From an uncultured Candidatus Saccharibacteria bacterium (lineage in GTDB: Bacteria; Patescibacteriota; Doudnabacteria; UBA920), in assembly GCA_964505635.1 (NCBI GenBank), contig CAZDIP010000003.1:15313-79312 (forward strand): a stretch of 64,000 nucleotides of DNA, written 5' to 3'. A model generated the notes under the pieces. That model was not told the DNA's origin, did no database searches, and saw nothing but the letters and a program-made list of their open reading frames with translations. This document shows positions 12,417-57,719 of this stretch, one piece after another. How positions within the stretch are numbered: the first letter of the stretch is position 1; the number at the start of each line of letters is the position of its first letter. A program made the translations under genes and the position numbers.

Positions 12417-12914
12417 TTATTTGCCCGCAAGCAAAAGACTCGGTTCAGCGACCAGGCACATAGCCTGGTAGTGTACGGTTACCCTAAGGATACCGCTTTT
12501 GAAAGCTAGACTGTTCCTCTTCTGTTCTCTGACGGGGTTTACGCACTCGTGTTCAATAACCAGCCGGCTAGTAGCCCGGTTAAGAATTCGCAGAAAAACT
12601 CGCCCAACGGCGTTACTTCGTTTTTGGACAACTAAAGTCTGCCGAGTGTCAGGCCGTTCCATAACAAAGTCATACACCGCCAGGGTCTTGTCAGAAACCG
12701 CCCCGAGCGCCCAAAGCGTGCCTAGACTTGACAGCGCGGTCGGGGCAAGCAAAAAGTGCCCAGCCAAAACCTCAAAGCCGTTTTCATCTAGCCTCACAAC
12801 CACCTTGCCGTCAACCTGCGCCTGCCTCGCCAATGGCGGAAATTCCAGATTTTGTACCAAAGCGTCTTGCCCGAAAGCAAGAAAAGTAACCAAGAATACG
12901 CTAAGCAGCCTCAT
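12417..12914 (-). CDS. secreted protein with TonB C-terminal-like motif, in a compositionally foreign (GC-rich) segment
   Basis: Strong SD (AAGGAGG 7 nt from the ATG). Signal peptide MRLLSVFLVTFLAFGQDA. FPPLARQAQVDGKVVVRLDENG resembles the TonB_C YPxxAxxxxxEGxVxV motif. GC is about 50% against about 35% in the flanks. Confidence 0.45.
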   Translation of the reverse strand: MRLLSVFLVTFLAFGQDALVQNLEFPPLARQAQVDGKVVVRLDENGFEVLAGHFLLAPTALSSLGTLWALGAVSDKTLAVYDFVMERPDTRQTLVVQKRSNAVGRVFLRILNRATSRLVIEHECVNPVREQKRNSLAFKSGILRVTVHYQAMCLVAEPSLLLAGK

Positions 12915-29290: not shown

Positions 29291-30510
29291 TGAACGCTAT
29301 TTAACATATTTTCAAGCTTTAAATAGGTTTGCTGCGCCAAATGGTTTTTTACCGCCACATTAAAAGCATTTTGTACCATATTGGTATCTTTATTTTTGGA
29401 AGTAAAAGCCTGTCTAATAATTTCTTTTATTTTCTCAATATCATTTGAACCTGTAACATGAGCAAAACCATTACTTTTAGCATATTTATACATAAAAGAT
29501 TCTTTTGGCGAGTTAACTAAAATAGGCCTTCCTGAAATAAGATATTCGCAAAGTTTTCCCGGGCTTGAAGTATTTATAAGTTGGGGAAACTTGGTGTTAA
29601 AACTTAAGGCCACAAGCAACAAGTCACTCTTTGCCATTACGCCCGAAACTTCTTGGGGAGAACAAAAATCAAAAAAAATTTTCCCGCTTTCACGTATTCC
29701 AATGCTATGCATATATTCTTTTGAGTGCGGGGTATATAAAACCAATTTTACGGGAATATCGGTAAGTTTTTCCACTGCCGAAGCCACACTTCTAACCGCG
29801 TCCTCTTGTGCCCAATATATATTGCCTAAAAAAACAATTCTAAATTCTGAGTCCGGCAATGCAGGCAAATTCGCAGCTATTGGCTGAAAATCTATGGAGT
29901 TATGGATAACCTCAACATGCCTGCGGTATTTTTTTTCATAGTGTTCTCTTAATTCCTCGCACATTACGGAGATTTTTGAAGCTTTCTTAAAAAGCCTTGG
30001 CTCAAGCCAGAAGGCGACCCACTTAAAAAGTATGGGCATTTTATTGCCTATATACATATCATAAAAATGCAAGGCAAAGGGCTTGCCAGTAAGTTTATGG
30101 AGCATATACACGGAAAATAAAACCAGTCCCCAATCCGAATAACCTAAAATTACCTCAATCCCCTGTTCCTTAACCGCTCTTTTCCCCAAGATAATTATTC
30201 CAATGGGAATCGTGAACCACAATACAATTTGTGCAAAAAATTTGGTTAACCAAAAATTTTTAATTATCCTCTTAAGTTTTTGTAATTTAGGCTCTTGCCT
30301 ATCGTTAAACTTCACAGCCAAAACTTTATTCCCGTAATAATAATAAGGAATTTTTAATCTGTATTCCTGCAATTTTGGATCCAAATTTTCCTCGCTCGTC
30401 AAAATAGCCAAATCTTTCTGTGGTAAATATTTAAGCAAAAAATACATCATTAGGCCTGAACCACTGCCTGAAGGCGGGGCATATGCGGAAATAACTAAAG
30501 TCTTTTTCAT
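29287..30510 (-). CDS. glycosyltransferase (GT4-like)
   Basis: An N-terminal GT-B domain pattern and a C-terminal nucleotide-sugar binding region. The assignment is weak. Confidence 0.4.
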   Translation of the reverse strand: MKKTLVISAYAPPSGSGSGLMMYFLLKYLPQKDLAILTSEENLDPKLQEYRLKIPYYYYGNKVLAVKFNDRQEPKLQKLKRIIKNFWLTKFFAQIVLWFTIPIGIIILGKRAVKEQGIEVILGYSDWGLVLFSVYMLHKLTGKPFALHFYDMYIGNKMPILFKWVAFWLEPRLFKKASKISVMCEELREHYEKKYRRHVEVIHNSIDFQPIAANLPALPDSEFRIVFLGNIYWAQEDAVRSVASAVEKLTDIPVKLVLYTPHSKEYMHSIGIRESGKIFFDFCSPQEVSGVMAKSDLLLVALSFNTKFPQLINTSSPGKLCEYLISGRPILVNSPKESFMYKYAKSNGFAHVTGSNDIEKIKEIIRQAFTSKNKDTNMVQNAFNVAVKNHLAQQTYLKLENMLNSVQ

Positions 30511-31718
30511 TAAAAAATCCCGTAAGCTTCGTTAATAAATTTATTTGCGGTCAAATTTTTTTTCAATCTTGATTTCTCAAAAAATCCGGAAGAAATTTTT
30601 TCCATCAAGTCTTCAAAAACCAGCTGGCTGGGGCTTTGCTTGCTGGGATTTAATGCGTAACGGTTCCAGTCTCTTTCTAAATCCAGGGCTTTTTTGGCGC
30701 CTTCGTAAATATCGCCGTCCGACAAAATGGTCGCGCCTGCCTGTATGGTTTCCGGCCTTTCCGTTGAAAGCCTGGAAATTAACGCAGGCACGCCTAAAAT
30801 TAAAGCCTCTTCCTGCACTGTTCCGCTGTCGCTGATTATTAACCTGGCTTCCTTCTGGAGTTTTAAAAATTCAAAATACCCCAAAGGCTTGGTAATTTTT
30901 ATGCCTGCATCTTCCGCTTCGGAAAGTAAGTTAATTTTTTCCAAATTACTCCTAACCCTGGGCATAAGCGGCCAAATCACTGTTACTTCTTTGGCAAGTT
31001 TTATAAGCCCCCCGACTTTTTCTTTAAGTTTGTTTAAATCAGACGTATTTTCTTCCCTGTGCAGGGTGACCAGCGCGTAATCTCCTGCTTCTAAGCCATG
31101 TTCTTGAATAATTTTTGTTTTATCCGCCATTGGCAAAAACTCTTCCACCGCGTCGTAAATTATATTCCCTATCACCTTAATCCTAAAATCCTCTATACCC
31201 TCCGACAAAAGCATTTCTTTATACCTGGGCATGTATGCATAAAGCGCGTCCGACATATGATCTATGACAATTCGGCATTTTTCTTCCGGCATGCGCCAGT
31301 CGTAACTGCGGCCGCCGGCCTCCAAATGAATGACCGGAATATTGTTGCGGGCCGCCACAATGCTGGACAACACGCTGTTTGTGTCTCCCAAATACATTAT
31401 GACATCAGGCTTTTCCCGGTTTATGAGTTCCAAAACTTTGGGAAATAAAATTCCTGTCTGATATTCAAAGCTTGTAGGGCCGCCGGCTGACTTAACAGCC
31501 AGTCCAACCCCCAAATTAATTTGCGGCCTTCGTACGCCCAATTGCTCATAAAAAATCCCGTCCAGCTCCTGGTCATAATGCTGGCCGGTATGCGCGTAAA
31601 TATGGGTATATCCGTACTTGTTCTGATTTTCGTCTAACAGCTTAATGAGCTTAAACATCCGAATAATATCGGGACGGATTCCGAGCAGGGTAATTAATTT
31701 AAATTTTTTTTCTGGCAT
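30510..31718 (-). CDS. UDP-N-acetylglucosamine 2-epimerase (non-hydrolysing, WecB/NeuC family); the start is probably Met17 (MPEKKF), whereas the ORF track extends to 31766
   Basis: ITLLGIRPDIIRM, HTGQHYD, and a family-typical length and order. Confidence 0.7.
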   Translation of the reverse strand: MPEKKFKLITLLGIRPDIIRMFKLIKLLDENQNKYGYTHIYAHTGQHYDQELDGIFYEQLGVRRPQINLGVGLAVKSAGGPTSFEYQTGILFPKVLELINREKPDVIMYLGDTNSVLSSIVAARNNIPVIHLEAGGRSYDWRMPEEKCRIVIDHMSDALYAYMPRYKEMLLSEGIEDFRIKVIGNIIYDAVEEFLPMADKTKIIQEHGLEAGDYALVTLHREENTSDLNKLKEKVGGLIKLAKEVTVIWPLMPRVRSNLEKINLLSEAEDAGIKITKPLGYFEFLKLQKEARLIISDSGTVQEEALILGVPALISRLSTERPETIQAGATILSDGDIYEGAKKALDLERDWNRYALNPSKQSPSQLVFEDLMEKISSGFFEKSRLKKNLTANKFINEAYGIF

Positions 31719-31775
31719 TAATAAAGTAATTAAATTACTATACAAGTATAACAAAAACAATACCAATTTATAATA

Positions 31776-31804
31776 TTGACAAAATTGTTAAAATAATGTA
31801 TAAT
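31776..31804 (+). promoter_or_regulatory. exact consensus sigma70 promoter TTGACA-N17-TATAAT facing the GC-rich cassette
   Basis: TTGACA at 31776-31781, a 17-nt spacer and TATAAT at 31799-31804. Confidence 0.45.
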
Positions 31805-31830
31805 ATATATTTAACTAAATATTTGTGCTT

Positions 31831-31864
31831 AAAAAAATAGGCTTATTCATAAGCTTGGTTTTTT
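31831..31864. terminator. A-run/hairpin/U-run element (bidirectional intrinsic terminator or leader attenuator)
   Basis: AAAAAAAT-AGGCTTA-TTCA-TAAGCTT-GG-TTTTTT. It lies between the promoter and the first ORF of the cassette, at the AT-rich/GC-rich boundary. Confidence 0.4.
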
Positions 31865-31986
31865 ACACGCAAAGCCTGTATGGGTGTGTGTAAATGCGGC
31901 AGGGTTAACAGCCCTGACTTAAGAGTTTGTTGTTAAGGAGGATCAGGTTTATGCCTGAATCCACCCTGTAGCAACGGCTCCAGAAA

Positions 31987-32565
31987 ATGTTTGACAGTAT
32001 ACGACGGGAAAATAACCGCCCTCTCGTTCTCCCTAATATGCCCAATTTGCATATCGTGGCGCTCTCAGCACCTCCCCTCATGACTCCTGGCGCGACTGTT
32101 ATGTCGGAATTTACGGCAGACAATGTCGCGAGAATCGTTCATGCGTCTAACCTGCGTGAGCAGGTACAAGACGCTAAACTGGTGTTGAATGGGGAAAGCA
32201 ACCAACTCACCATGATGCTGCACATCGCGCTTAAGTGCGGGGTGCCGGCAAACTTCATTGAGCTGGTAGACTGCAACCCGCGCCCCAACGGAAATACTCG
32301 CACACAGCTCCAAAAGATGGAAAAAGACCTGCGCTTCCCGCAGGATGGCTACTATGTGTTTGTGACCGTTTCGTGGCATATGCCACGGGTTATCGCGACC
32401 GCCCGCAAACAACTCAAGCGGCTTGCCAACCATATGGTCGTCGGCGTACCGTACGCTGATTTCCACGACTTTGACTGGAACGAAAAGGTCGCCGACGAAA
32501 TGTGGCGCATCCCCCAATACATCAACAAGGGAGACATTGCCGACCCGACAATCGGCATGGAGTAG
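31987..32565 (+). CDS. DUF218 (YdcF/ElyC/SanA family) domain protein, GC-rich foreign-like gene
   Basis: Order LHIVALSA, KLVLNGES, CGVPANFIELVDCNPRPNGNTRTQ and YVFVTVSWHMPRV matches the DUF218 core pattern vvvLGG, vvsGG, GVp...ie..S.nT.eNa and vvVTs..HmpRa. GC is about 53%. Confidence 0.5.
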   Translation: MFDSIRRENNRPLVLPNMPNLHIVALSAPPLMTPGATVMSEFTADNVARIVHASNLREQVQDAKLVLNGESNQLTMMLHIALKCGVPANFIELVDCNPRPNGNTRTQLQKMEKDLRFPQDGYYVFVTVSWHMPRVIATARKQLKRLANHMVVGVPYADFHDFDWNEKVADEMWRIPQYINKGDIADPTIGME

Positions 32566-32571
32566 CCACCT

Positions 32572-33237
32572 ATGCTCCCTCCTCGTGATAAGAACGGTTT
32601 TCAAGTCATTGCCTCGAGCGCAGGCGTGAAAGTGGAAACCTGTTTTGCTGAATTCAATGTCCGGCAGCAGACTGCTGCCAACGGACAAACGGAAACGTGG
32701 GGCCGGCTTATAACCCGTCCTGCGTTTGAAGTCGCGTTGCTTGCAAAGGAAGACGGCGAAACCAAAGTTCTCCTTATGCAAAAACAGCGCCTCGCGGGCG
32801 AACCCCCGGTCACTAAATGTCCGGGCGGATACATCTTCTTAAAAGGCAGCGAACTCAACTTGGACAACTTCCTGTCTAAGATCCTTGGCGGCGGATTCGG
32901 CTCTGTTGACCTGTATGACGTTCTGCCTTTCGGTTCGTTCATTGAAGAACGAATGTTGTCCTTAGGGATCTGTACTAACTTTACAAACATGCAGCTCTTT
33001 GGCTGCGTGGTAGGTCACGGCGAAATCATTACCCCCATTCTCCTGCTTGCCACCAACAAATGGCAACAGGTCGCGCCCCCGCCAGAGGGCATATCTTTCC
33101 GCAAAATGCTTCTTTCGGAAGCGGCGCGCCTGGCAGTGCAAACCGTCCAGATAGGCCGACGGATGAAAGATGCGCTTGACAGCGACAGCAGCGTGGAGCT
33201 GCTATTGTCGCTGTACGCCAAAGAACAGCTCCGCTAA
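32572..33237 (+). CDS. hypothetical protein with weak NUDIX-fold-like pattern (degenerate Nudix box), GC-rich foreign-like gene
   Basis: KVLLMQKQR...CPGGYIFLKGSE...ILGGGFG resembles the strand-loop-helix of a Nudix fold but lacks the REx2EE glutamates. SD GGAG sits 9 nt upstream. It lies 6 nt after the upstream gene. Confidence 0.3.
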   Translation: MLPPRDKNGFQVIASSAGVKVETCFAEFNVRQQTAANGQTETWGRLITRPAFEVALLAKEDGETKVLLMQKQRLAGEPPVTKCPGGYIFLKGSELNLDNFLSKILGGGFGSVDLYDVLPFGSFIEERMLSLGICTNFTNMQLFGCVVGHGEIITPILLLATNKWQQVAPPPEGISFRKMLLSEAARLAVQTVQIGRRMKDALDSDSSVELLLSLYAKEQLR

Positions 33238-33242
33238 CTATA

Positions 33243-33288
33243 ACCGCGGCTTGAATGCATCCCACAAGATGACAAACAAGCCGCGGCC
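33243..33288 (+). other. 10-bp perfect inverted repeat with 26-nt loop immediately after cassette gene 2
   Basis: CCGCGGCTTG ... CAAGCCGCGG. Confidence 0.4.
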
Positions 33289-33308
33289 AAACTCTTTACT
33301 AACTTTGC

Positions 33309-33330
33309 CCGGCTTTAAGGCCGGTTTTTT
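33309..33330 (+). terminator. intrinsic terminator of the GC-rich cassette; the hairpin spans the stop codon of the convergent EEP gene
   Basis: CCGGC-TTTAAG-GCCGG followed by TTTTTT. Confidence 0.5.
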
Positions 33331-34100
33331 ATTTCAAACCAAAGCTCCATAGGCAAATGGTCGGAAACCAAGTTATAAGGAACCCTAAAATCCCTTACCT
33401 TAATTTCTTTGGAAACAAAAGTAAAATCCGCAAAATACTGCACGTTTTTATTATTTTGCCACGAAACTTCATTGCGCGTATTTTTTATATTAAATTCTTT
33501 AATTAAGTTTTTACCCACCGACTCTAAAATTTTTATGCTCTTTGTTTTTAATTCCAAATTAAAATCTCCGCATAAAATTTTAGGTCCGGCCATGCTTTGC
33601 CACAAATTTTTTAAATTTTTAGACTGGAGAAGCCTTCTTTTGGTGTCAAATTTATTACCCGGTCTGCTCATGCCATGAAAATTTATTACAGAAAATTTTT
33701 CTTTCGCCTTTTTTAAAACCAAAGTCTGGGCAACAAAATCCCCCTCCGAAGGGTGGTCGGTCTTTGCTCTGCCGGTTATAACGACTGAATTGGAATTTAA
33801 AATTTCCACACTATTTTTTACAAAAACCGCCAAGCCCTGGCAGACCGGAAAATTTAAACGGCTGGAAACATCAAAACCAAAAACCCTAGGTATAAAAATC
33901 CCCGTAAAATTAGCAAGTTTTTTGCTTAGTTCCTGGAATAAAAAAAGTCTGGATTTATGCCAAACCTTAGGAGCGGGTCCATAAGAAGACAACATTTCCT
34001 GAAAGCAAAAAATGTCTGTATTTTTAGCCAAAGGCTTTAAATAATCAAGCAATTGTTTGCCTTGTCTGCCGCCCCAAATATTAAGCGAAACTAATTTCAT
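33315..34100 (-). CDS. endonuclease/exonuclease/phosphatase (EEP) family protein
   Basis: N-terminal MKLVSLNIWGG and conserved EEP-fold motifs (FCFQE, GDFN, a C-terminal SDH). Confidence 0.65.
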   Translation of the reverse strand: MKLVSLNIWGGRQGKQLLDYLKPLAKNTDIFCFQEMLSSYGPAPKVWHKSRLFLFQELSKKLANFTGIFIPRVFGFDVSSRLNFPVCQGLAVFVKNSVEILNSNSVVITGRAKTDHPSEGDFVAQTLVLKKAKEKFSVINFHGMSRPGNKFDTKRRLLQSKNLKNLWQSMAGPKILCGDFNLELKTKSIKILESVGKNLIKEFNIKNTRNEVSWQNNKNVQYFADFTFVSKEIKVRDFRVPYNLVSDHLPMELWFEIKNRP

Positions 34101-34102
34101 AA

Positions 34103-34990
34103 TTAAAGTCCCTCAAGCATTTGCTGAAAACTTGGTATTTCTAATTTCTTACAAACATCAAATTTAGTAGACAATCTTCGATCAACCGCGGCAACTTCTG
34201 CCTTCTCAATTATCGCGTTGATTTTGTATTTTTCCTTAAACGCCAGCAACATATCGTACTTGCTTACGTCATTGCCAAAAATATGGAATAAACCAAAAGA
34301 AGGAAAACTTCCGCGGTCATTAATAATCCTGGCGCAAACCTTCCCAAACTGCCTGGTGGTAATTCCATTCCAAAAATGGTTGGTAAAACCGGTTATGGTT
34401 TGTCCTTCCTGTTTCTTAAACCAGGCTATTAACGAGCTGCCTTCCCCAAGCTCCGGACCAATAATAGAAGTTCTCAATATTAGCGAATTAGCGGACGGTT
34501 CCCCCAAAGCTTTAGACAGGCCGTATAAGTCGTTGGGGCTTTTTGGCGACTCTTCGGAGTACGGCGCGCCGCTAACTCCTGAAAAGGCGCAGTCAGTGGT
34601 AATTTGGATAAGTTTTTCCTTATACTCAGCAGACAGTATGTGCGGCAAACTGCCGTTTATAAACATTGTAATTTCGGGGTTTTTTAAACTGTGGGGTTTT
34701 ATAATACCGGCGCAGTTAACAACCGCGTCAATTTCGCCGATTTCCAAATAAAGCTGCCTGAGTTTTGGCGAAATATGCTCTTTGGGAAAACCGGCAATAT
34801 ATTCTTTATACAAATCCGAAAAATCAAATTGAATTTTTTTATGCTTTTCCAATCCCCCGTAAGTTTGGCTGAGTAAATTTAATTTTGCTTCATCCCGGTA
34901 AACTAAAACCAAATCAAAAACATCTTTCAACTGGTCATAAACCTGGTTTCCCAGCATTCCGGTAGGGGCTAAAATTGCAACTTTTTTCAT
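34103..34990 (-). CDS. SDR-family sugar nucleotide reductase/epimerase (RmlD-like)
   Basis: N-terminal Rossmann fold AILAPTGMLG, a YGLSK (YxxxK) motif and a length of about 295 aa. Confidence 0.5.
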   Translation of the reverse strand: MKKVAILAPTGMLGNQVYDQLKDVFDLVLVYRDEAKLNLLSQTYGGLEKHKKIQFDFSDLYKEYIAGFPKEHISPKLRQLYLEIGEIDAVVNCAGIIKPHSLKNPEITMFINGSLPHILSAEYKEKLIQITTDCAFSGVSGAPYSEESPKSPNDLYGLSKALGEPSANSLILRTSIIGPELGEGSSLIAWFKKQEGQTITGFTNHFWNGITTRQFGKVCARIINDRGSFPSFGLFHIFGNDVSKYDMLLAFKEKYKINAIIEKAEVAAVDRRLSTKFDVCKKLEIPSFQQMLEGL

Positions 34991-35004
34991 AAATTTATAA
35001 TGTG

Positions 35005-35457
35005 TTACCTGGGCTTAACGCTCCAGACGTCCCCGAATTTATACGGATCCGTTCGTTTGTCGTCGGCTATGCTTTCTTCAAAGCTTGAGGTGGATCCGCA
35101 AACCAAAATAGTATTGTCTTCCAAGCTTACCCACCCGTTGGCAAAACCAGGAGGAATGACTACCAAGGTCGGCTTTCGCGCGGAAGAAATGAAAGTAAAT
35201 TGCTCTTTTTCATCGACCGGATTTATCGCAACAAACTTTGCAGAGCCGCTGACAATAATAAAATATTTCCATTCATTTTCATGAAAATGAAAACCGCGTA
35301 TTATTCCTTTGCCATAATTATACACGTAATACATGCGCTTAATTTTTAGCCCATTTGTGCCGGGTAAATCATCGCTGCTGTTTAAAAATGGGATAAAAGT
35401 ACCGCGGTCATCTCCTTTGACGGTAATTTCCATTGCGTAAGGTTTGGTTGATTTCAT
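35005..35457 (-). CDS. sugar 3,4-ketoisomerase cupin (FdtA/QdtA, WxcM-like domain)
   Basis: RGFHFHENEW cupin motif and a length of 150 aa typical of FdtA. Confidence 0.6.
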   Translation of the reverse strand: MKSTKPYAMEITVKGDDRGTFIPFLNSSDDLPGTNGLKIKRMYYVYNYGKGIIRGFHFHENEWKYFIIVSGSAKFVAINPVDEKEQFTFISSARKPTLVVIPPGFANGWVSLEDNTILVCGSTSSFEESIADDKRTDPYKFGDVWSVKPR

Positions 35458-42460: not shown

Positions 42461-42489
42461 TTGACAAATGTTGTAATTTTTGATATAAT
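42461..42489 (+). promoter_or_regulatory. exact consensus sigma70 promoter with extended -10 (TTGACA-N17-TGaTATAAT)
   Basis: TTGACA at 42461-42466, a 17-nt spacer ending in TGA, and TATAAT at 42484-42489. Confidence 0.45.
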
Positions 42490-42539
42490 ATGTAGTTTTC
42501 AGTTGAAATTCCAATATTATATTAGAGGAGGATGCAATT

Positions 42540-43160
42540 GTGGAGTTGAGAAGAAGGTTGGAGAGGGTTATCCTTGAAAACCCGATGTTTGAGTGGGACT
42601 GGAGAAAGTCTCGTGAGCAGCGGCGAGCTGTACACGAACTTTTTTCCACGCCAATACCTCCCAGCGCAAACCCCAAAGGTGGAGTGAGCCGAGAGGTCTA
42701 CTACGGCTTCAAGGAAGGCTGCGCTACAGCAAACGCGGACATGGTCGTCTGCACCCGCCTTGAAACCGGTGAGTGCGCTGTCCTGGCACTTCATAGGGAC
42801 CCAGGCACACCGTTTGGCGGGGTATGGGATATGGGCGGCGGGGCAATCCTCGCCTACCAGGCAATCGCTGATTGCCTAAAAGCCAAATCCCAAAAAGAAA
42901 CCGGTCTCACCCTAGAGCCCGAGGCGCTGTTAGGCTGCTACCGCAACGACGCGCCCGACATGGCGTCAAGCGTCATCGCGCTGTGCTACGTTGCCACAGC
43001 ACCAGTGCAGCAGCTTCAATCAGTGGTTGCCGGGGACGGCAACCACAAGTGGCAATTTTTCACTTTGGCAGACCTGGAGAATCTGCCAGCGAACCAGACC
43101 TACTGGTATGCCATGTATGTCTGGCGCAAGGTCTTAGAGGCCGCGCCACGCGTCCTCTAA
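42540..43160 (+). CDS. NUDIX-fold-like protein with degenerate Nudix box, GTG start, GC-rich foreign-like gene
   Basis: SD GAGGAGG lies 7 nt before the GTG. AVLALHRD...FGGVWDMGGGAILAYQAIADCLKAKSQKETGL follows the Nudix pattern vLLvqR..G.W.lPGG.vE.GE...A.REl.EEtGl, but with the REx2EE glutamates replaced. HKWQFF sits at the usual C-terminal Trp position. GC is about 57%. Confidence 0.4.
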   Translation: MELRRRLERVILENPMFEWDWRKSREQRRAVHELFSTPIPPSANPKGGVSREVYYGFKEGCATANADMVVCTRLETGECAVLALHRDPGTPFGGVWDMGGGAILAYQAIADCLKAKSQKETGLTLEPEALLGCYRNDAPDMASSVIALCYVATAPVQQLQSVVAGDGNHKWQFFTLADLENLPANQTYWYAMYVWRKVLEAAPRVL

Positions 43161-43183
43161 ATCAACAACCCCAAGCAACAAAA

Positions 43184-43218
43184 GGCCGACGCTTTCAGCG
43201 CCGGCCTTTCTCATTTTT
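43184..43218. terminator. GC-rich intrinsic terminator after cassette 2, likely bidirectional (it also follows fcl)
   Basis: GGCCGACGC-TTTCA-GCGCCGGCC followed by TTTCTCATTTTT. Confidence 0.5.
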
Positions 43219-48841: not shown

Positions 48842-50365
48842 TTACTGCTTTATGTAAGTTACGATTTCTTGTCCTTCGTTGACTCCTTCCAAAACTTCTA
48901 CCAAACCACCATCTGCTTCCATTCCAGTAGTCACCAAAATTTCATCGTAAGTTTTTTTCTTTGAATCTTTAATTATTCTTAAATATTTAGCATTTCCTTT
49001 TACAATCACTGCCCTTAAAGGAACAGTTAGCACAGCCTGTTTACTACCCGTTAAAATACTAATATTCGCAGTCATACCTGGCTTAATTTCACTTAATTTA
49101 TCGAGTGAAATAGTTACTTTATAATTCACAACCCCGGAAACTAGCGTAGAAGCAGGATCAACGGCCTGAACCTTGCCTACAAATTTCCTATCCACGCCAA
49201 GGGCATCAAAAGTCAATTCTACTTCCTGATCTGGCTTAATGTATGCAATATTAGCTTCGCTAATATTAGCTTCAACATGAAGATTGCCTATATCTTGCAA
49301 AACAACCAAAGCTGCCAGCGCGGTGGCTAATTGACCGGGTTTGGCGTCAACTTTGGTAATGGTGCCTTCTGCTGGCGCTCGCATTATGGTATTTTCCAAA
49401 TCAGCGGAGGCAGCCAAAACCTGGCCTTCTGCAGTTAAAATTTGAGCCTTAGCAGATTCAAGCTCAGCCGGCCTTGCTTTGGCTAACTTTAATTCTAAAT
49501 TAGCCTGGGCTGACAAAACATTGTTTTCAGCCGAGGTTATCTGTGCTTTTTGGGTCTGCAATGCCGACTCGTAAGCATTTAAATTTGTCACATAACCAGA
49601 GGCTTTAGTGTTGGGAATTTTAACAGTCCAGCTATCGTTACTGGCTGTAATAGTAGACGGAAACTGAACATATAAACCTCTGGTGCCCAAAGGCAATGGA
49701 ACAGACACGCTTGTATTAATTGTCTGATTTCCCCGATTCTCCAAACCCAAAACATAAAAACTCAAGCCTTCCTGCATTATCGTATATGTTCCTTGCTCAG
49801 TTCCGGTATAAGTTCCCGATATGGTCAGCGTGATATTATTTAAGTTGGAAGAATTAGGAATTGCTTCCAAACTGGAATTGAGCAAAGCTTTATAAGCATT
49901 ATCAACCAAAACCTGTTGTTGCCTCCTTACGTCTTCCAGGGTTTTTTGCGCATTTTCCAAAGTAACCCTGGCCACCGCCACCTCTTCGTTAGAAGAACCG
50001 TCTAACACCTTCTGGTAATTAGCCTCAGCCTGTTTTAGCGCCCCTTTAGCTTGAGTTAACCTTGCCACCTGGTCTTTTTGATCCAAAAAAGCCAAAACCG
50101 CTCCTGCCTTTACTTTATCGCCAACCTGAGCGTTAACCCGGCTGATAATTCCGCTGGTTTTAAATGCCAGAGCCAAGTCAGTCTGGCTGGTAACCTGGCC
50201 GGTCGCTAAAACTGTTTGTTTTATGTCCTGTTTCTTTACCGATTCAGACTGAATGTCGGCTATATTGCTGCCTTTGCCTTTAAAAACAAAGAACAAAATT
50301 AAAGCAAGTATTGCTATTCCAGCAATAACTTTTTTCTTTTTAAAAAAACTAAATATTTTTTGCAT
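48842..50365 (-). CDS. HlyD-family membrane fusion / efflux periplasmic adaptor protein
   Basis: N-terminal TM helix, biotinyl-lipoyl-like and coiled-coil segments (ARLTQAKGALKQAEANYQKV), and a beta-barrel C-terminus. Confidence 0.6.
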   Translation of the reverse strand: MQKIFSFFKKKKVIAGIAILALILFFVFKGKGSNIADIQSESVKKQDIKQTVLATGQVTSQTDLALAFKTSGIISRVNAQVGDKVKAGAVLAFLDQKDQVARLTQAKGALKQAEANYQKVLDGSSNEEVAVARVTLENAQKTLEDVRRQQQVLVDNAYKALLNSSLEAIPNSSNLNNITLTISGTYTGTEQGTYTIMQEGLSFYVLGLENRGNQTINTSVSVPLPLGTRGLYVQFPSTITASNDSWTVKIPNTKASGYVTNLNAYESALQTQKAQITSAENNVLSAQANLELKLAKARPAELESAKAQILTAEGQVLAASADLENTIMRAPAEGTITKVDAKPGQLATALAALVVLQDIGNLHVEANISEANIAYIKPDQEVELTFDALGVDRKFVGKVQAVDPASTLVSGVVNYKVTISLDKLSEIKPGMTANISILTGSKQAVLTVPLRAVIVKGNAKYLRIIKDSKKKTYDEILVTTGMEADGGLVEVLEGVNEGQEIVTYIKQ

Positions 50366-50406
50366 AGATTATATTATAGCCCATTTTTCAATAAATTTCA
50401 AGTCCT

Positions 50407-53342: not shown

Positions 53343-56300
53343 CTAATTCAAGGAAAGACCCTGAGAGTCAGTAGGAATAGTTCTTACATAGCGGCCATTG
53401 GTCCAGTCATCCGAGCTGCTTGACCCAGCGGTGTCGCTGTGAGAAGTAGCGGACATATCGGACCAAATGAAGTTATAAGCTGCGGTGGCGGCTTCCATGT
53501 CGTTACCAACGTTGTTGGTATCGTCCTGGTCACGCAATTGCTGCGCGGCAGCCAAAGTGCTTAAGTCACCGGTAACCGCGGCGGTGTCAGTCGTGGCAAT
53601 AGAAGTCGTGACCGAATCGCCGGTATCAGCGCCAGCGACCGTGGCTTTGAAGTCATAGGTCTTGGAGCTGCCGGAAGTAATAAGTTCTTCCGAGTTAAAG
53701 GTGATATCAACAGTAACCGAGCCTGCAGCATAAGTAGCTGAGCTGGTTACGGTTAAGTTGCTTCCGCCCTGCGGGGCAATGGCAAAGGAAGACAAAGACA
53801 CGCCGGTAGTGGAAGAGCTGGTGAAGGTAATATGCTTAAGAGCAATATCATTATCAACAGCAGTCACTTTAAAGCGGTACAAAGTCTGGGTGCCGTTACC
53901 CAAAGAGCTGGTCATAGCCACGGTTTCTACTTTCGGCTGGCTCTTTCTTAAGACAACATAGCTGCCTACATAAGAACCGCTGGAAGGAGCAGTCAAAGTG
54001 GTAGAACCGGAAGTGCCGCGAACCTCAAAGTTGTTGCTGCCGTCAAGCCAGACAGCGAATTCATCGCCGCTGTCAGCACCATTGGAAATAGTGTTAAGGT
54101 CAGCTTTAACAGTTAAGTTCTTGCTGGCATCCTTGCCGATTATAAAGTCGGCGGTCATGCCGGTAAAGTCAGCATAGCCTTCAATGGTGCCGGACGGAGT
54201 CAAAGACACCGGACCTGCGACCAAGGTGCTGCCGTCATACAAGTAGAGGGCAGTAATGTCGTCGGCTATATTGGCTGCCGAAGCGGCTGTGGAGCTGGCT
54301 GTGGCAACCGCAATGCGGGCTTTGGTCAGCTTAAGCTCTTCGTTAACCGCGGTAAAGCGGATTTTGCCCAAAGTTACACCGGTTTTACCAGCAGTAACAA
54401 TGCGGGCGTCAGTAACATCCTGTTCGTTGTTACCAGCTGTGGCGACCGTAATGGTGCCGGCGCCGGTAATGGTAATGGCGGTACCAACCGTAGTGGTGGT
54501 GCTGCCGTTAACCGGATAGCTGGTGCTATCGGTTACGCTGTTACCGTCAGGATCAACCGCAGTAATGCTGGAAGAAGCAATTTTCCATTTGATAACATTG
54601 CTGGAGTTGGCGGAGTTTGAAATGGTCATTTTAACCACCAAAGTCTTGCTGCTACCTTTCGGAACTACCCAGTTAAGACCGTTGAAGGTCATAGTACCGG
54701 CAGTGGAAGGAGATTTAGTCTGGCCGATTTTGGTCGCGCCGTCGTAAAGCTCAACAGTTACCACGTTGTCAGACACATAAATTGTGCTGGCAGAGGCGTT
54801 GGTAGTGCTGCCATCAGCCATGGTGGCTGCGGCCGCGGAAGCTATCATACCGGTTAAGGTAAGGTCGGTGACTTTTACGTCAGCCGCGGTAGAAGCGGTA
54901 AAGACATAGCCAGCTGCTTCAACCATGGTGCTGCCTTTGACAAAGGACTTGGAAGTCGGAGTAGCGGCCAAAGCAACAGTCAAAGAAGGAACCCTAACTG
55001 TCATTTGGTTACCTGAAATGTCAGAGGTAGGCACTATGTCAGTGGAGGTTAAGAAGGTGTTGTTGTCAGTGTTCTTAACGTCGTTGGAAGTTAAGCTGTC
55101 AACATCCAAAGTGGCGCCAATTACGTCGCCGGAAGTAACATCGGAATTGTTGGCAACATCCAAAGTAACCTTATAGGTTTTGGAAGTACCGGCGGCCAAA
55201 AAGACGTCTTCCGTAAAGGTAAGAGTCTGAGAGGTGGCGCTGCCTGTGCCGGACAAATCCTGAGGCCCGAAAACTACGGCGCCGGTTGTGGCGTCTACGA
55301 CTTTTACGTCGGTGTAGTTAGGGGTGGTATTGTCGTTAAAATCAGCAGTACCGCTGCCGCCGTTGTTGAACACAAAGGCCAACTGGCGGATTTCCAAGTT
55401 GTTCTGGGCAGCCATGGTGAAGTTGAAAACTTCAACATCTTTGCCGTTCTTGGCAATATCCTTGGCAGACGGACCGTTAAAGGTAATGGTCAACTGACCA
55501 CCTTCAACGTAGCTGTAAGAACAGTCGCCGGAAGAAGAAGTACAGCTGTCGCCGTCATAATCCGTAGAGGTAACAGCAGTGCCAAAACCATAGGTCTGGC
55601 CTACCGCGAACAAGTCGGTAGATTCTTCTAAGTAGAATTTGACGGTTTCGGAAGAACCCGTGCGGGAACCGCCGGAAACGTTGGCGTAGACTTCAAAAGT
55701 CTTGGTATCGCCCTTGGCTAAGGCAAAGTTAACTTCAAAGTTAGCTTTGTCTTCGCTGTCTAAGGCAGCTACGGTGGCTAAGGTGTTGCCGGCCTGCTTT
55801 AAGACCAAATTGGTCAAGTTAGAGCTGGCAACAGCGCCGCCCTGGTAAAGAGAAATTCTCTTAACCACGACGTCTTCGGAAGAGCTGGCGGCCAAGGTAA
55901 AGGAACCTACTCTGACATTCTGCTCACCAACTTTAGGGTTGGTAATGCTGCCGGTTTTGGCAATAGTGACAGTACCGGATGAAACACCGGCGAGAGTCAT
56001 GCTGTTGCCGCTGGCAGTGCCGCTGGCCTGGGTTGAACCAAGCATAACGGAAGTCACCATTAACTGGTGAACATTGCCCGCTGTGGCGGAAGAATAAATA
56101 TCAGCCAATACGTCCATGGTAATGGATCCGCCGGCCGGAACATTCACGTTAAGGCCGGAGAACACCGCTTCGTTGGTGGAAGAGTTAACACTGCGTCCAG
56201 AGGTTAATCTGGAAGCGCCCTGGTAAAGGTAAACGTTGGTCAGGTCCGAAGTGGAACCCGCGCCGGTGCGTTTAACTGTAACCTGGTTAACTGTGGCAGC

Positions 56301-57137: not shown

Positions 57138-57719
57138 TTGTTAAATTTTACTCCATTTAAGCAATTGATTATTCAATTGAGACAATCAATTTTGTGCTTA
57201 AATTTTTAATTAATTTTACATCTGATTTTAATACCAACACTTAAGGCTCTAGAGATCTCTTAAATATGGTTTTAAAAAGGATGATTATTGAAATCCTATA
57301 TTAAGACTAAAACGCTAACCTATCGACCAAAAACATTACATGCGTTCCTGAAACAGGAAAACAAACATAATATTTTAAGCTAGCTGGCCTATAAAATAGG
57401 CTCAATAATTAATATTAGACATATTGCCTATGCGTTTTCCTGAGTTTGCAATATGTATGAGGTAAGACGTCTTAATTTTAAGTCTGTTACAACAAAAAAT
57501 TAAGCGACCAGGCTTTTTTGTAAAATACAAAAAGCCAGGGAATATTTATATTTTTTACCTTAAATAAGACAAAAAATAACAATAAACATTCCCTGACTTT
57601 TAACTTTACTGAAAAAAGTAAAATTTATACATGTGTGAGTATTTCAGAATTATATCAGTAATTTTTAATATTATAAAATAAGATATCAATTTTGTCAAAT
57701 GCTAATATTTACATTCTAC

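What the first reader, a model, noticed from the sequence alone, without database searches (positions are those of the whole stretch)
31776..33335. Compositionally foreign two-gene plus-strand cassette (DUF218-like plus degenerate NUDIX-like) with exact consensus promoter, inserted between wecB-like and EEP genes
GC jumps from about 35% to about 53% at roughly 31865-33300, and codon choice shifts to CTG, GCG and CGC-rich usage. In this stretch every flanking gene is on the minus strand. The segment carries a perfect TTGACA-N17-TATAAT promoter, a leader hairpin with a 7-codon mini-ORF behind a strong SD, two tightly spaced ORFs, a 10-bp inverted repeat and its own GC-rich terminator. That terminator hairpin spans the stop codon of the native EEP gene. 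The layout is that of a self-contained expression unit of foreign origin, whether a moron-like horizontally acquired cassette or host-derived DNA. Its gene products have no obvious role in the surrounding glycan pathway.
Basis: seen in the sequence. Interest (0 to 1): 0.8.

Follow-up and report, generated by a model that had tools for sequence, protein, structure and literature searches.

The report
Foreign two-gene insert behind native promoter
A 1.4-kb piece of foreign, GC-rich DNA carrying two sugar-metabolism accessory genes has landed between a pre-existing strong promoter and terminator in a cell-surface glycan locus; a sister strain still has the empty site, so this is an ordinary but very cleanly resolved case of recent horizontal gene gain.

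Summary
Window 31831-33234 has 53% GC against 39% elsewhere. GC3 is 0.60-0.65 against 0.38±0.06, and Leu and Arg codon use switches completely. A perfect TTGACA-N17-TATAAT sits upstream and a hairpin terminator overlaps the EEP stop codon.

- **Empty site.** A sister-strain contig (L015) joins window 31830 directly to 33235. The 1404-bp insertion is therefore real and precisely bounded.
- **Native signals.** The promoter, the 10-bp inverted repeat, the terminator and even ORF2's TAA stop are all present in the empty site. They are native, not cassette-borne. The foreign genes landed inside a ~115-nt promoter-hairpin-terminator unit, possibly a small RNA gene.
- **The "mini-ORF".** It is the original start of ORF1, cut off by an in-frame TAG at codon 7.
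- **Gene families.** ORF1 is a DUF218/YdcF-like protein. ORF2 has a Nudix NDP-sugar pyrophosphatase fold with a degenerate Nudix box.
- **Link to the glycan pathway.** Both families, known so far mostly from Patescibacteria, normally sit beside orthologues of this window's wecB-like and RmlD-like genes. They do belong to this pathway.
- **No mobile-element link.** I found no phage, plasmid, integron or transposon signal.

Verdict: a new member of a known kind, of moderate interest.

The parts
31776..31804 (+). Native sigma-70-type consensus promoter, TTGACA-N17-TATAAT. It is not part of the inserted DNA.
   Evidence: It scores 12/12. There are 3 exact matches in the window against 0.01 expected. 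It is present in the empty-site contig L015 with one spacer substitution.
31805..31830 (+). Native 5' segment of the small plus-strand transcription unit. The inferred start site is near 31811. The left insertion junction lies after 31830.
   Evidence: blastn aligns L015 2153-2793 to window 31830-31190 at 96.3%. The start-site position is an inference from the -10 box.
31831..33234 (+). Inserted foreign DNA, 1404 bp, absent from the sister strain. It has no target-site duplication and no terminal inverted repeats.
   Evidence: L015 joins window 33235 directly to 31830.
31838..31864 (+). AT-rich terminator-like hairpin (AGGCTTAT-TC-ATAAGCTT) followed by GGTTTTTT at the left end of the insert. 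It is probably the terminator of the upstream gene in the donor and may attenuate read-through from the native promoter.
   Evidence: It appears as inverted repeat I1 and as an 8-bp stem in the MFE fold of the leader. Its function is inferred.
31936..31971 (+). SD AAGGAGG (31936-31942) plus ATG 31951 and a 6-codon ORF (MPESTL) that ends at TAG 31969-31971. This is the original start of ORF1, now cut off by an in-frame nonsense codon.
   Evidence: It is in the same frame as ORF1. With read-through, the N-terminus has the same length as in homologues L008, L009, P0006 and P0008, and the downstream helix aligns. ATG 31987 has no SD. The TAG is also present in the independent Logan contig L006.
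31987..32565 (+). ORF1, 192 aa from the first downstream ATG. It is a cytoplasmic DUF218/YdcF-like protein of a subfamily found in Patescibacteria glycan loci.
   Evidence: Pfam DUF218 scores 30.3 bits, E 4.3e-7. Homologues are 35-40% identical. The AF2 model has pLDDT 84; its best real PDB match is E. coli YdcF 3ca8, prob 1.0, TM 0.56.
32572..33237 (+). ORF2, 221 aa. It has a Nudix fold of the NDP-sugar/ADP-ribose pyrophosphatase type, a degenerate Nudix box and a ~25-aa insertion inside it. The last sense codon is foreign and the TAA stop (33235-33237) is native DNA.
   Evidence: There are no Pfam, NCBIfam, PHROG or PADLOC hits. Exhaustive HMMER finds 20 representatives at E<=1e-3 (the query's own sequence plus 19 relatives), ~35-46% identical over the matched stretches. 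The alignment is A3. The AF2 model has pLDDT 88.5. Foldseek finds Rv1700, NudK/YffH and NudF at E~1e-9, TM 0.6-0.7. The box alignment is and the junction.
33235..33335 (+). Native 3' segment of the small unit. It holds a hairpin (10-bp perfect stem 33244-33253 / 33277-33286) and an intrinsic terminator (33309-33324 plus a T-run). The terminator overlaps the EEP stop codon at 33315-33317.
   Evidence: It is present at 99.9% identity in empty-site contig L015. The empty-site RNA folds at -42.8 kcal/mol, z -6.0. There is no Rfam family match; the only hit, RgsA, scores 16.6 bits against a gathering score of 88.4.
30510..31766 (-). Native wecB-like UDP-GlcNAc 2-epimerase, transcribed divergently from the promoter. 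Its probable true start is the ATG at 31718.
   Evidence: Pfam Epimerase_2, E 3.6e-76. It is 51% identical to the wecB-like genes that neighbour ORF1- and ORF2-family genes in L008 and L011.
33315..34100 (-). Native endonuclease/exonuclease/phosphatase-family gene, convergent with the insert.
   Evidence: Pfam Exo_endo_phos, E 5.7e-8. It is conserved in sister strain L015.

Best explanation
Window 31831-33234 is a recently acquired 1404-bp fragment from a GC-richer donor, probably another Patescibacteria-like bacterium. It integrated by illegitimate recombination, with no duplication, no terminal repeats and no recombinase nearby.

**Where it landed.** The target was a native ~115-nt plus-strand unit between the EEP gene and the wecB-like gene. 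That unit consists of a consensus promoter, a strong hairpin and an intrinsic terminator, and is possibly a small RNA gene. The two foreign genes are therefore most likely expressed from a captured host promoter and terminated by host hairpins.

**Inferred expression.**
1. Transcription starts near 31811 and passes a weak terminator-like hairpin that came in with the insert.
2. Ribosomes load at the strong SD and ATG 31951 and stop at the TAG in codon 7.
3. They can re-initiate 15 nt downstream at ATG 31987 to make a DUF218/YdcF-like protein that lacks 12 N-terminal residues.
4. ORF2 is translationally coupled: the ORF1 stop and the ORF2 ATG are 6 nt apart, with a GGAG upstream.

**Inferred function.** In other genomes both protein families sit directly beside orthologues of this locus's RmlD-like reductase and wecB-like 2-epimerase. 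The cassette most likely adds two accessory activities that act on, or sense, the nucleotide-sugar or lipid-linked precursors of the surface glycan made by this locus. ORF1 would be a YdcF-like enzyme. ORF2 would be a Nudix-fold NDP-sugar binding or hydrolysing protein without the canonical catalytic glutamates.

**Shown:** the insertion, its boundaries, the native origin of the promoter and terminator, the folds, and the gene-neighbourhood link.
**Inferred:** donor identity, promoter use, re-initiation, and biochemical role.
For: **Insertion and native signals**
- Empty-site contig: L015 1-2152 matches window 35386-33235 at 99.9%, and L015 2153-2793 matches window 31830-31190 at 96.3%.
- The junction sequences show that the promoter, TAA, inverted repeat and terminator are in the empty site.
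- Composition and codon shift.
- Amino-acid bias: F+Y+I+K+N is 22% in the island against 31% in native genes.
- The empty-site RNA folds strongly, z -6.0.

**The two proteins**
- ORF1 matches DUF218 and the YdcF fold.
- ORF2 has a Nudix fold with a degenerate box.
- ORF1's start is aligned. SD presence and absence are listed.

**Gene neighbourhoods**
- L001-L005: epimerase, FdtA-like, RmlD-like, then ORF1 family.
- L007: wecB, epimerase, RmlD-like, then two ORF1-family genes.
- L008: RmlD-like, wecB, two methyltransferases, then ORF1 family.
- L011: RmlD-like, wecB, then ORF2 family.
- Kazan-type contigs: ORF2 family next to a Glycos_transf_4 (MraY/WecA-type) gene.
- The native genes are 47-58% identical to their orthologues in those loci.

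**Origin**
- Named members of both families are Patescibacteria or Kazan.
- No phage, plasmid or E. coli match.
- No integrase or transposase among the ~47 of the 59 long ORFs scanned against Pfam.

**Literature.** DUF218 proteins SanA and ElyC balance peptidoglycan and ECA glycopolymer synthesis and may be enzymes (PMC12176290).
Against: - The junctions rest on one assembled contig for each allele. I could not map reads.
- The only other assembly of the insert (L006) lies wholly inside it and spans no junction.
- The direction of the event, gain here or precise loss in the sister strain, is inferred from composition and not proven.
- No donor was found. The best homologues are only 35-46% identical, and no other locus carries both families together.
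- The premature TAG in ORF1 suggests the genes may be decaying or poorly expressed. So do the missing ~20-aa loop in ORF1, the 25-aa low-confidence insertion in ORF2 and the loss of the family's conserved Asp in ORF2's Nudix box.
- A terminator-like hairpin lies between the promoter and ORF1.
- There are no expression data.
- The host's taxonomy was not determined directly.
Confidence: 0.75

Rival explanations
1. The island was acquired before the two strains split, and the sister strain (L015) lost it by a precise deletion. The 'empty site' would then be derived, not ancestral. The promoter-hairpin-terminator unit would be a deletion product, not a pre-existing small gene.
For: Only two alleles are known. 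The two flanks differ sharply in divergence (99.9% against 96.3%), which shows recombination at this spot. A second GC-rich island (42540-43160) is shared by both strains, so foreign genes can persist here.
Against: A deletion would have to remove exactly the foreign DNA and leave a well-folding hairpin-terminator unit (z -6.0). No direct repeats flank the segment that could drive such a deletion. The 16-nt similarity D3 (31850-31865 and 33316-33331) would give a different product from the one observed.
Confidence: 0.12
2. The insertion is real, but the cassette is non-functional passenger DNA in decay. ORF1 is a pseudogene because of the nonsense codon at position 7. ORF2 is an inactivated Nudix relic. 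Neither contributes to glycan synthesis.
For: There is an in-frame TAG after the only SD-linked start. ORF1 lacks the ~20-aa segment present in nearly all homologues. ORF2 carries a unique 25-aa insertion inside the Nudix box with pLDDT ~65 and lacks the family's conserved Asp. A terminator-like hairpin lies upstream.
Against: Apart from the one TAG, both frames are intact over 192 and 221 codons. All family-invariant residues are kept. The AF2 models are confident (pLDDT 84 and 88). An ATG lies 15 nt after the TAG, and ORF2's start coincides with the starts of its homologues. The whole ORF2 family, not only this copy, has the degenerate box, so degeneracy is not a sign of decay.
Confidence: 0.25
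3. Assembly chimera. The 1.4-kb GC-rich piece belongs to another organism in the metagenome and was wrongly joined into this contig. The L015 arrangement is the only real one.
For: The source is a metagenome-assembled contig. The independent Logan contig with the island (L006) contains no junction. No read data were available.
Against: There is no shared sequence at either junction that a graph assembler could have used to mis-join. The fragment sits in the sense orientation behind a promoter. ORF2's frame closes exactly on the flank's TAA. The fragment's genes belong to families that normally neighbour wecB-like and RmlD-like genes. A random chimera would not show these coincidences.
Confidence: 0.04
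4. One reading: a self-contained, moron-like mobile expression cassette that arrived with its own consensus promoter, leader peptide, inverted repeat and terminator.
For: The filled locus, seen alone, looks like a complete promoter-to-terminator unit on the opposite strand from all its neighbours.
Against: The promoter, inverted repeat and terminator are present in the strain that lacks the genes. There are no phage or IMG/VR relatives. No prophage or mobility genes were found among the window ORFs scanned. The 'leader peptide' is ORF1's own start.
Confidence: 0.03
5. The genes are native and their high GC reflects expression-linked codon bias. All three perfect promoters in the window precede GC-rich genes, so the pattern would mark strongly expressed genes, not foreign DNA.
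For: The three exact consensus promoters (31776, 42461, 57698) each precede a GC-rich gene. GC-rich genes have strong SDs while most native genes have none.
Against: The genes are absent from a 96-99.9% identical strain. GC1 and amino-acid composition are shifted as well as GC3. A conserved translation-factor gene in the window (BipA/TypA-type GTPase) has ordinary composition (GC 0.428, GC3 0.379), though its expression level is unknown.
Confidence: 0.03

Closest known systems
Horizontally acquired gene islands in surface-polysaccharide (O-antigen, capsule, S-layer glycan) loci
   Same: The island has atypical GC and codon use inside a long co-directional glycan gene cluster. It is present in one strain and absent in a very close relative. 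Its cargo consists of accessory sugar-pathway genes.
   Different: The island is GC-richer than the host, whereas the classic cases are AT-richer. It has no IS elements or flanking homology blocks. It was inserted on the opposite strand, exactly between a pre-existing promoter and terminator, so the expression signals are captured rather than imported.
DUF218 family (PF02698): E. coli YdcF, SanA, ElyC, YgjQ
   Same: ORF1 passes the Pfam gathering score. Its predicted fold matches YdcF (3ca8). It keeps the H-x-P-R-V and N-T motifs. SanA and ElyC are tied to envelope glycopolymer precursor balance (PMC12176290, PMC3879167), which fits a glycan-locus role.
   Different: ORF1 has no membrane anchor or signal peptide, unlike SanA and ElyC. 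Its subfamily is very divergent: a profile search of PDB sequences does not find YdcF. The subfamily is known so far from Patescibacteria-type contigs and has its own LNGE-x-x-QL and GNT-x-TQ motifs. No biochemical activity is known for any member.
Nudix NDP-sugar / ADP-ribose pyrophosphatases (M. tuberculosis Rv1700, E. coli NudK/YffH GDP-mannose hydrolase, NudF, human NUDT5)
   Same: ORF2 has the same two-part fold, an N-terminal beta domain plus a Nudix domain (Foldseek E~1e-9, TM 0.6-0.7). Nudix enzymes also occur in polysaccharide clusters; E. coli WcaH/Gmm in the colanic acid cluster is an example from my own knowledge.
   Different: The Nudix box GX5EX7REUXEEXGU is not conserved. The family has K-x-PGGY ... 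K-I-x-x-D-T-G-I, and the window copy lacks even the Asp and carries a 25-aa insertion. The Pfam NUDIX model does not hit it. Canonical metal-dependent pyrophosphatase chemistry is therefore doubtful. It may bind NDP-sugars or use other residues, such as the invariant His149.
Phage morons and integron gene cassettes
   Same: It is a small foreign gene unit on the opposite strand from its neighbours, bracketed by a promoter and a terminator.
   Different: There is no prophage context and there are no phage homologues. The promoter and terminator are host DNA. I saw no attC-like site, no core-site match at the junctions by eye, and no integrase in the ORFs scanned.

Membership tests
DUF218 / YdcF-like (PF02698), ORF1 | Match to the Pfam DUF218 model above the gathering score | tested here: met
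   30.3 bits against a cut-off of 27.6, E 4.3e-7, residues 46-161. Homologues L008, L009 and P0006 also pass.
DUF218 / YdcF-like (PF02698), ORF1 | Rossmann-like alpha/beta fold of E. coli YdcF (PDB 3ca8) | tested here: met
   The AF2 model has pLDDT 84.4. Foldseek against 3ca8_A gives prob 1.00, TMq 0.56, but E is only 5e-3.
DUF218 / YdcF-like (PF02698), ORF1 | Conserved Thr/His/Glu putative catalytic triad reported for SanA (PMC12176290) | tested here: inconclusive
   The family keeps invariant T104, H131, E70 and E171 in ORF1 numbering. I did not align these residue by residue to SanA or check their proximity in the model.
SanA/ElyC-type DUF218 (membrane-anchored, periplasmic) | N-terminal membrane anchor with the DUF218 domain outside the cytoplasm | tested here: not met
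   The ORF1 sequence and its homologues show no hydrophobic N-terminal segment, so it is YdcF-like and cytoplasmic. This was judged by eye; no topology predictor was run.
Nudix hydrolase superfamily (PF00293), ORF2 | Nudix alpha/beta/alpha sandwich fold | tested here: met
   The AF2 model has pLDDT 88.5 and pTM 0.83. All 50 listed PDB matches are Nudix enzymes, E down to 9e-10, TM 0.5-0.7.
Nudix hydrolase superfamily (PF00293), ORF2 | Nudix box GX5EX7REUXEEXGU with catalytic glutamates | tested here: not met
   Family consensus PGGY...K-I-x-x-D-T-G-I aligns to PGGF...R-E-x-x-E-E-T-G-V of Nudix proteins. The window copy reads E-R-M-L-S-L-G-I after a 25-aa insertion.
Nudix hydrolase superfamily (PF00293), ORF2 | Match to the Pfam NUDIX model | tested here: not met
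   No Pfam family at E<=0.1. A profile search of PDB sequences gives only weak Nudix hits, E 0.08-1.6.
Horizontally acquired genomic island | Composition and codon use deviate from the host genome | tested here: met
   GC3 z of +3.7 to +4.6 and tetranucleotide z of +2.9.
Horizontally acquired genomic island | Absent from the orthologous site of a close relative | tested here: met
   L015 from SRR11567540 joins 31830 to 33235.
Horizontally acquired genomic island | Mobility signatures: integrase or transposase, tRNA target, direct repeats | tested here: not met
   There is no target duplication or terminal repeat. No recombinase appears among the Pfam-scanned ORFs. The nearest tRNA genes are more than 16 kb away.
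Phage moron | Located in a prophage, carrying its own promoter and terminator | tested here: not met
   The promoter and terminator are native. There is no significant PHROG hit (best E 0.28) and no phage or IMG/VR hit. The neighbours are glycan genes.
Integron gene cassette | attC recombination site at the cassette end and an IntI integrase with attI nearby | tested here: not met
   The hairpin next to the junction is native and is a perfect 10-bp stem, unlike attC. The junction sequences GCTT|AAAA and CCGC|TAAC do not match the G|TTRRRY core; this was checked by eye. No integrase was found.
Small non-coding RNA gene (the native unit in the empty site) | Own promoter and intrinsic terminator bracketing a short, structured, non-coding transcript | tested here: met
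   A perfect promoter, about 115 nt, and a terminator. The fold is -42.8 kcal/mol, z -6.0. I saw no SD-linked ORF on reading the sequence.
Small non-coding RNA gene (the native unit in the empty site) | Membership of a described RNA family, conservation with covariation, and expression | tested here: not met
   Rfam finds nothing at gathering score. The only weak hit, RgsA, scores 16.6 against 88.4 bits. Only two near-identical copies are known, so covariation is untestable and expression is unknown.

The most novel reading that the evidence does not exclude
In this lineage, orphan consensus promoters with a downstream hairpin and terminator may act as recurrent, recombinase-independent landing pads and expression platforms for foreign genes. 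All three exact TTGACA-N17-TATAAT sites in 64 kb precede GC-rich genes of atypical composition. Two of those genes are degenerate-Nudix genes inside the same glycan locus. One site has been caught in both the empty and the filled state.
Probability: 0.1. Interest if true: 0.7.

Novelty: new member of a known kind. Interest (0 to 1): 0.35.

Why it matters
- **A clean example of gene gain.** Both alleles are known to the base pair. The case shows that a newly arrived gene pair can become expressible by landing inside an existing promoter-terminator unit, without bringing its own signals. The organism is a small-genome, probably Patescibacteria-type bacterium, a group in which gene gain is poorly documented.
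- **A functional lead for two uncharacterised families.** One is a cytoplasmic DUF218 subfamily and the other a Nudix-fold family with a degenerate box. Both are tied to wecB-like/RmlD-like nucleotide-sugar pathways, which gives a concrete biochemical hypothesis for proteins that have none.
- **A caution for annotation.** A strong promoter next to foreign DNA need not be foreign. A "leader mini-ORF" can be a decapitated gene start.

Tried and rejected
- **Contamination or vector origin.** E. coli-like codon use suggested it, but blastn of the island against all complete E. coli genomes and PLSDB plasmids found nothing.
- **Phage origin.** tblastn against phages, PHROGs and three IMG/VR scans gave no significant match; the best PHROG hit had E 0.28.
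- **Defence system.** PADLOC found nothing.
- **Large structured RNA instead of genes.** High GC in an AT-rich genome made this worth checking. Rfam found only tRNAs in the window, and both ORFs have real protein homologues.
- **ORF2 as an orphan.** The word-indexed search found only the query itself, but the exhaustive search found a family.
- **TAG recoding.** The mini-ORF, ORF1 and ORF2 share one frame separated only by TAGs. However, TAG ends 12 of 59 ORFs in the window. ORF2's ATG coincides with its homologues' starts. ORF1's homologues are stand-alone proteins that end at the same place.
- **A mobile promoter module.** The three perfect promoters share nothing beyond the consensus.
- **Relation between ORF2 and the second Nudix gene (42540-43160).** None is detectable.
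- **The 230-aa gene upstream of the ORF1 homologue in L007 as an ORF2 relative.** It is not; it is a DUF218 paralogue.
- **Same-site comparison in JGI metagenomes through the EEP protein.** Only distant relatives turned up (<=54% identity), and none carries either family.
- **Source organism and sample.** Neither could be named. The cluster look-ups carry no names. The GTDB representative scan did not return this genome. The SRA run numbers appear in no paper.

Full report
**1.

In 300-nt windows GC climbs from about 0.29-0.35 to 0.52-0.56 between about 31950 and 33300, then falls back to 0.33. At 1-kb resolution, 32001-33000 is one of only four stretches above 0.49; the others lie in 54001-57000.

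| Measure | ORF1 (31987-32565) | ORF2 (32572-33237) | Other 56 long ORFs |
|---|---|---|---|
| GC | 0.534 | 0.532 | 0.388±0.043 |
| GC3 | 0.653 | 0.599 | 0.383±0.058 |

| Codons | Native genes | Island |
|---|---|---|
| Leu TTA+TTG | 70% | 17% |
| Arg AGA+AGG | 57% | 4% |
| Arg CGC | 18% | 43% |
| Ala GCG | 19% | 42% |

Amino-acid composition is shifted too: F+Y+I+K+N is 22% in the island against 31% in native genes. The tetranucleotide distance from the window mean is z=+2.9.

- The exact TTGACA-N17-TATAAT lies at 31776-31804. The window has three exact matches where shuffles give 0.01.
- The terminator at 33309-33324 plus its T-run overlaps the EEP stop codon.
- The 10-bp perfect inverted repeat lies at 33244/33277.
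- Pfam confirms wecB-like (Epimerase_2), EEP (Exo_endo_phos) and DUF218 for ORF1.

**2. A sister strain holds the empty site**

The EEP protein's 90% cluster has a second member on a 2793-nt Logan contig from run SRR11567540 (L015). blastn aligns the contig to the window in two blocks:
- L015 1-2152 matches window 35386-33235 at 99.9%.
- L015 2153-2793 matches window 31830-31190 at 96.3%.

In that strain, bases 31830 and 33235 are adjacent and window 31831-33234 (1404 bp) is missing.

The junction is exact: GTGCTT|TAACTATAACC in L015, against GTGCTT|AAAAAAATAGG ... CTCCGC|TAACTATAACC in the window. There is no target duplication and there are no terminal inverted repeats.

**3. The expression signals are native**

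The empty-site contig contains all of the following:
- the consensus promoter, with one spacer substitution;
- about 20 nt downstream of the inferred start site;
- TAACTATAA;
- the CCGCGGCTTG...CAAGCCGCGG hairpin;
- the CCGGCTTTAAGGCCGG-T6 terminator.

The promoter, the inverted repeat, the terminator and ORF2's TAA stop codon therefore belong to the host. In the empty strain they form a ~115-nt plus-strand unit that folds far better than shuffles (-42.8 kcal/mol, z -6.0). It matches no Rfam family. I read it as a probable small RNA gene, or at least an orphan promoter-terminator pair.

The foreign DNA landed inside this unit in the sense orientation. It is thus placed to be transcribed from a captured promoter. 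The cassette is not self-contained.

**4. What the insert carries**

Its first 34 nt are AT-rich and form a terminator-like hairpin followed by GGTTTTTT (31838-31864). This is probably the terminator of the donor's upstream gene, and it could attenuate transcription.

Next comes a structured leader with AAGGAGG (31936-31942) and ATG 31951. The "7-codon mini-ORF" (MPESTL-TAG) is in the same frame as ORF1. When the TAG is read through:
- the N-terminus has exactly the length of four homologues (L008, L009, P0006, P0008);
- the following helix aligns, QKMFDSIRR against HKLIEEFRK.

ATG 31987 has no Shine-Dalgarno sequence. The mini-ORF is therefore ORF1's original start, cut off by a nonsense codon at position 7. 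Re-initiation at ATG 31987, 15 nt downstream, is the likely way ORF1 is still made; this is an inference. The TAG is also present in an independent Logan contig (L006, 100% identical to window 31943-33102).

TAG is a normal stop in this window (12 of 59 ORFs). ORF1, ORF2 and the mini-ORF share one frame, but I attribute that to chance plus translational coupling. ORF2's ATG coincides with its homologues' start codons, and ORF1's homologues end where ORF1 ends.

**5. ORF1**

- It passes the Pfam DUF218 gathering score (30.3 against 27.6 bits).
- Seven homologues at 35-40% identity share the invariant motifs LNGE-x-x-QL, GNT-x-TQ, H-x-PRV and GDIA.
- The AF2 model has pLDDT 84. Its best real structural match is E. 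coli YdcF, the DUF218 archetype (3ca8, prob 1.0, TM 0.56).
- It has no membrane anchor, so it resembles cytoplasmic YdcF more than SanA or ElyC.
- In GTDB species representatives the subfamily was found only in two Patescibacteria MAGs: UBA2105 and a Woesebacteria bacterium.
- In the literature, SanA and ElyC balance peptidoglycan and enterobacterial common antigen synthesis and may be enzymes with a Thr/His/Glu triad (PMC12176290; also PMC3879167).

**6. ORF2**

- Curated libraries and the word-indexed search found nothing beyond the query itself.
- The exhaustive HMMER search found 20 representatives at E<=1e-3 — ORF2's own sequence plus 19 relatives that are ~35-46% identical over the matched stretches. 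Conserved motifs are TRPAFEVA, K-x-PGGY, GH-x-EI-x-TPI and ENDSSF.
- The AF2 model is confident (pLDDT 88.5). All 50 listed PDB matches are Nudix NDP-sugar or ADP-ribose pyrophosphatases: Rv1700, E. coli NudK/YffH GDP-mannose hydrolase, NudF and NUDT5, with E~1e-9 and TM 0.6-0.7.
- The Nudix box is degenerate. The family's PGGY...K-I-x-x-D-T-G-I aligns to PGGF...R-E-x-x-E-E-T-G-V. The window copy also has a 25-aa insertion and lacks the Asp.
Canonical pyrophosphatase chemistry is doubtful.
- Named members come from candidate division Kazan and Patescibacteria.

**7. The genes belong to this kind of glycan pathway**

ORF1-family genes lie directly after orthologues of the window's own genes:
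- L001-L005: epimerase, FdtA-like cupin, RmlD-like, then ORF1 family.
- L007: wecB, epimerase, RmlD-like, then two tandem ORF1-family genes.
- L008: RmlD-like, wecB, two methyltransferases, then ORF1 family, with a GT4 gene opposite.

An ORF2-family gene directly follows RmlD-like and wecB in L011. In Kazan-type contigs the family sits next to a Glycos_transf_4 (MraY/WecA-type) gene.

The window's RmlD-like, wecB-like, FdtA-like and epimerase proteins are 47-58% identical to their counterparts in those loci. The statement that the products have no obvious role in the surrounding pathway is therefore not supported.

The most economical reading is this. A strain that lacked these accessory genes at this locus acquired both from a GC-richer relative, and they act on nucleotide-sugar or lipid-linked precursors of the glycan. 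No other locus in my sample carries both families together, and no donor was identified.

**8. Context and other origins**

The window is ordinary chromosome:
- pentose-phosphate genes;
- a type IV pilus operon;
- a roughly 30-kb glycan locus with an initiating transferase, RmlC, many glycosyltransferases and methyltransferases, a flippase and two Wzy_C/TPR proteins.

I saw no integrase, transposase or phage gene. The island DNA matches nothing in E. coli genomes or plasmids. Neither protein has phage or IMG/VR relatives. Moron, integron-cassette, contamination and defence-system readings are rejected.

**9. Rivals**

- **Precise loss in the sister strain** cannot be excluded with two alleles. 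It would have to remove exactly the foreign DNA without flanking repeats.
- **A chimeric assembly** is unlikely. No sequence is shared at the junctions, the orientation and frame closure fit, and the cargo is functionally matched to its neighbours.
- **Decay of the cassette** is a serious possibility for its current function. The evidence is the nonsense codon, the missing loop in ORF1, and the insertion in ORF2's box.

**10. A wider pattern**

All three exact consensus promoters in the window precede GC-rich genes:
- this island;
- a second plus-strand unit at 42461-43215, encoding a 206-aa NUDIX-domain protein (GC 0.573) between two minus-strand epimerases;
- a 1264-aa secreted protein at 53343-57137.

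The second island is present in the sister strain (L060), so it is older. The promoters are not copies of one another.

Whether such orphan strong promoters act as recurrent landing pads for foreign genes is the most novel reading still open. I give it about 10%.

**11. Verdict**

The island is a genuine, recent, precisely bounded horizontal acquisition in a glycan locus. It carries a DUF218/YdcF-like gene and a degenerate Nudix-fold gene that fit the local pathway, and it is expressed, if at all, from captured host signals. This is a new member of a known kind. The interest is moderate (0.35), mainly because both alleles are resolved, because of the promoter capture, and because of the functional lead for two uncharacterised families.

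Noticed in passing
window 42461-43215 (+): A second plus-strand GC-rich unit with the same outward layout. It has an exact TTGACA-N17-TATAAT (42461-42489), a strong SD (AGGAGG), a 206-aa NUDIX-domain ORF (42540-43160; GC 0.573, GC3 0.652; Pfam 27.7 bits) whose Nudix box also looks degenerate, and its own GC-rich terminator. It is wedged between two minus-strand epimerase genes. It shows no detectable similarity to ORF2. It is present in the sister strain (L060, 97.3% identity).
   Followed up: partly
window 53343-57698 (-): The third exact consensus promoter (57698-57670, just downstream of tRNA-Pro) precedes a ~530-nt AT-rich leader. A 1264-aa ORF follows, with a signal-peptide-like N-terminus, 51% GC, Thr/Ser/Ala/Gly-rich composition and no Pfam or NCBIfam hit. 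It is the most compositionally deviant region of the window and may be a major surface or S-layer-type protein.
   Followed up: partly
window 12417-12914 (-): Another GC-rich gene (165 aa, GC 0.518) has a strong SD and a signal-peptide-like start but no family hit. It sits after the terminator of the preceding gene and is also compositionally atypical.
   Followed up: no
whole window: Most native genes have no recognisable Shine-Dalgarno motif in the 18 nt upstream, whereas the GC-rich genes do. At 50365-50401 a near-consensus -10 box ends only 7 nt before the ATG of the HlyD-like gene, which suggests a leaderless mRNA.
   Followed up: no
L015 against window 31190-35386: Divergence between the two strains is very uneven across the insertion point: 99.9% on the EEP/RmlD side and 96.3% on the wecB side. 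Another region (L060) is 97.3% identical. The 2.1-kb near-identical tract ends exactly at the junction, which hints at a recent homologous-recombination tract bounded by the insertion site.
   Followed up: partly
window 31951-33237 (+): The mini-ORF, ORF1 and ORF2 are all in one reading frame, separated only by two TAG codons (plus 6 nt), and the frame ends on a TAA. I judged this a coincidence plus translational coupling, not recoding, but it is an unusual arrangement.
   Followed up: yes
window 31850-31865 and 33316-33331: The 3' half of the terminator-like hairpin at the insert's left end (TAAGCTTGGTTTTTTA) is 13/16 identical to the 3' half of the native terminator (TAAGGCCGGTTTTTTA). This may be chance similarity between two terminators or a trace of how the fragment was joined.
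   Followed up: no
window 30450-31650 (-): The native wecB-like gene is itself somewhat GC-elevated (GC 0.419, GC3 0.473; local windows up to 0.48) compared with its neighbours (0.32-0.39). It may be an older acquisition or a mosaic.
   Followed up: no
L007 3402-4773: In one metagenomic contig the ORF1-type DUF218 gene is tandemly duplicated. The two copies are 48% identical and their gene calls overlap.
   Followed up: partly
window 33235-33335 / L015 2052-2190: The native ~115-nt promoter-hairpin-terminator unit is convergent with EEP and overlaps its last codons. It could be an unannotated small RNA or an antisense regulator of EEP. It has no Rfam match.
   Followed up: partly
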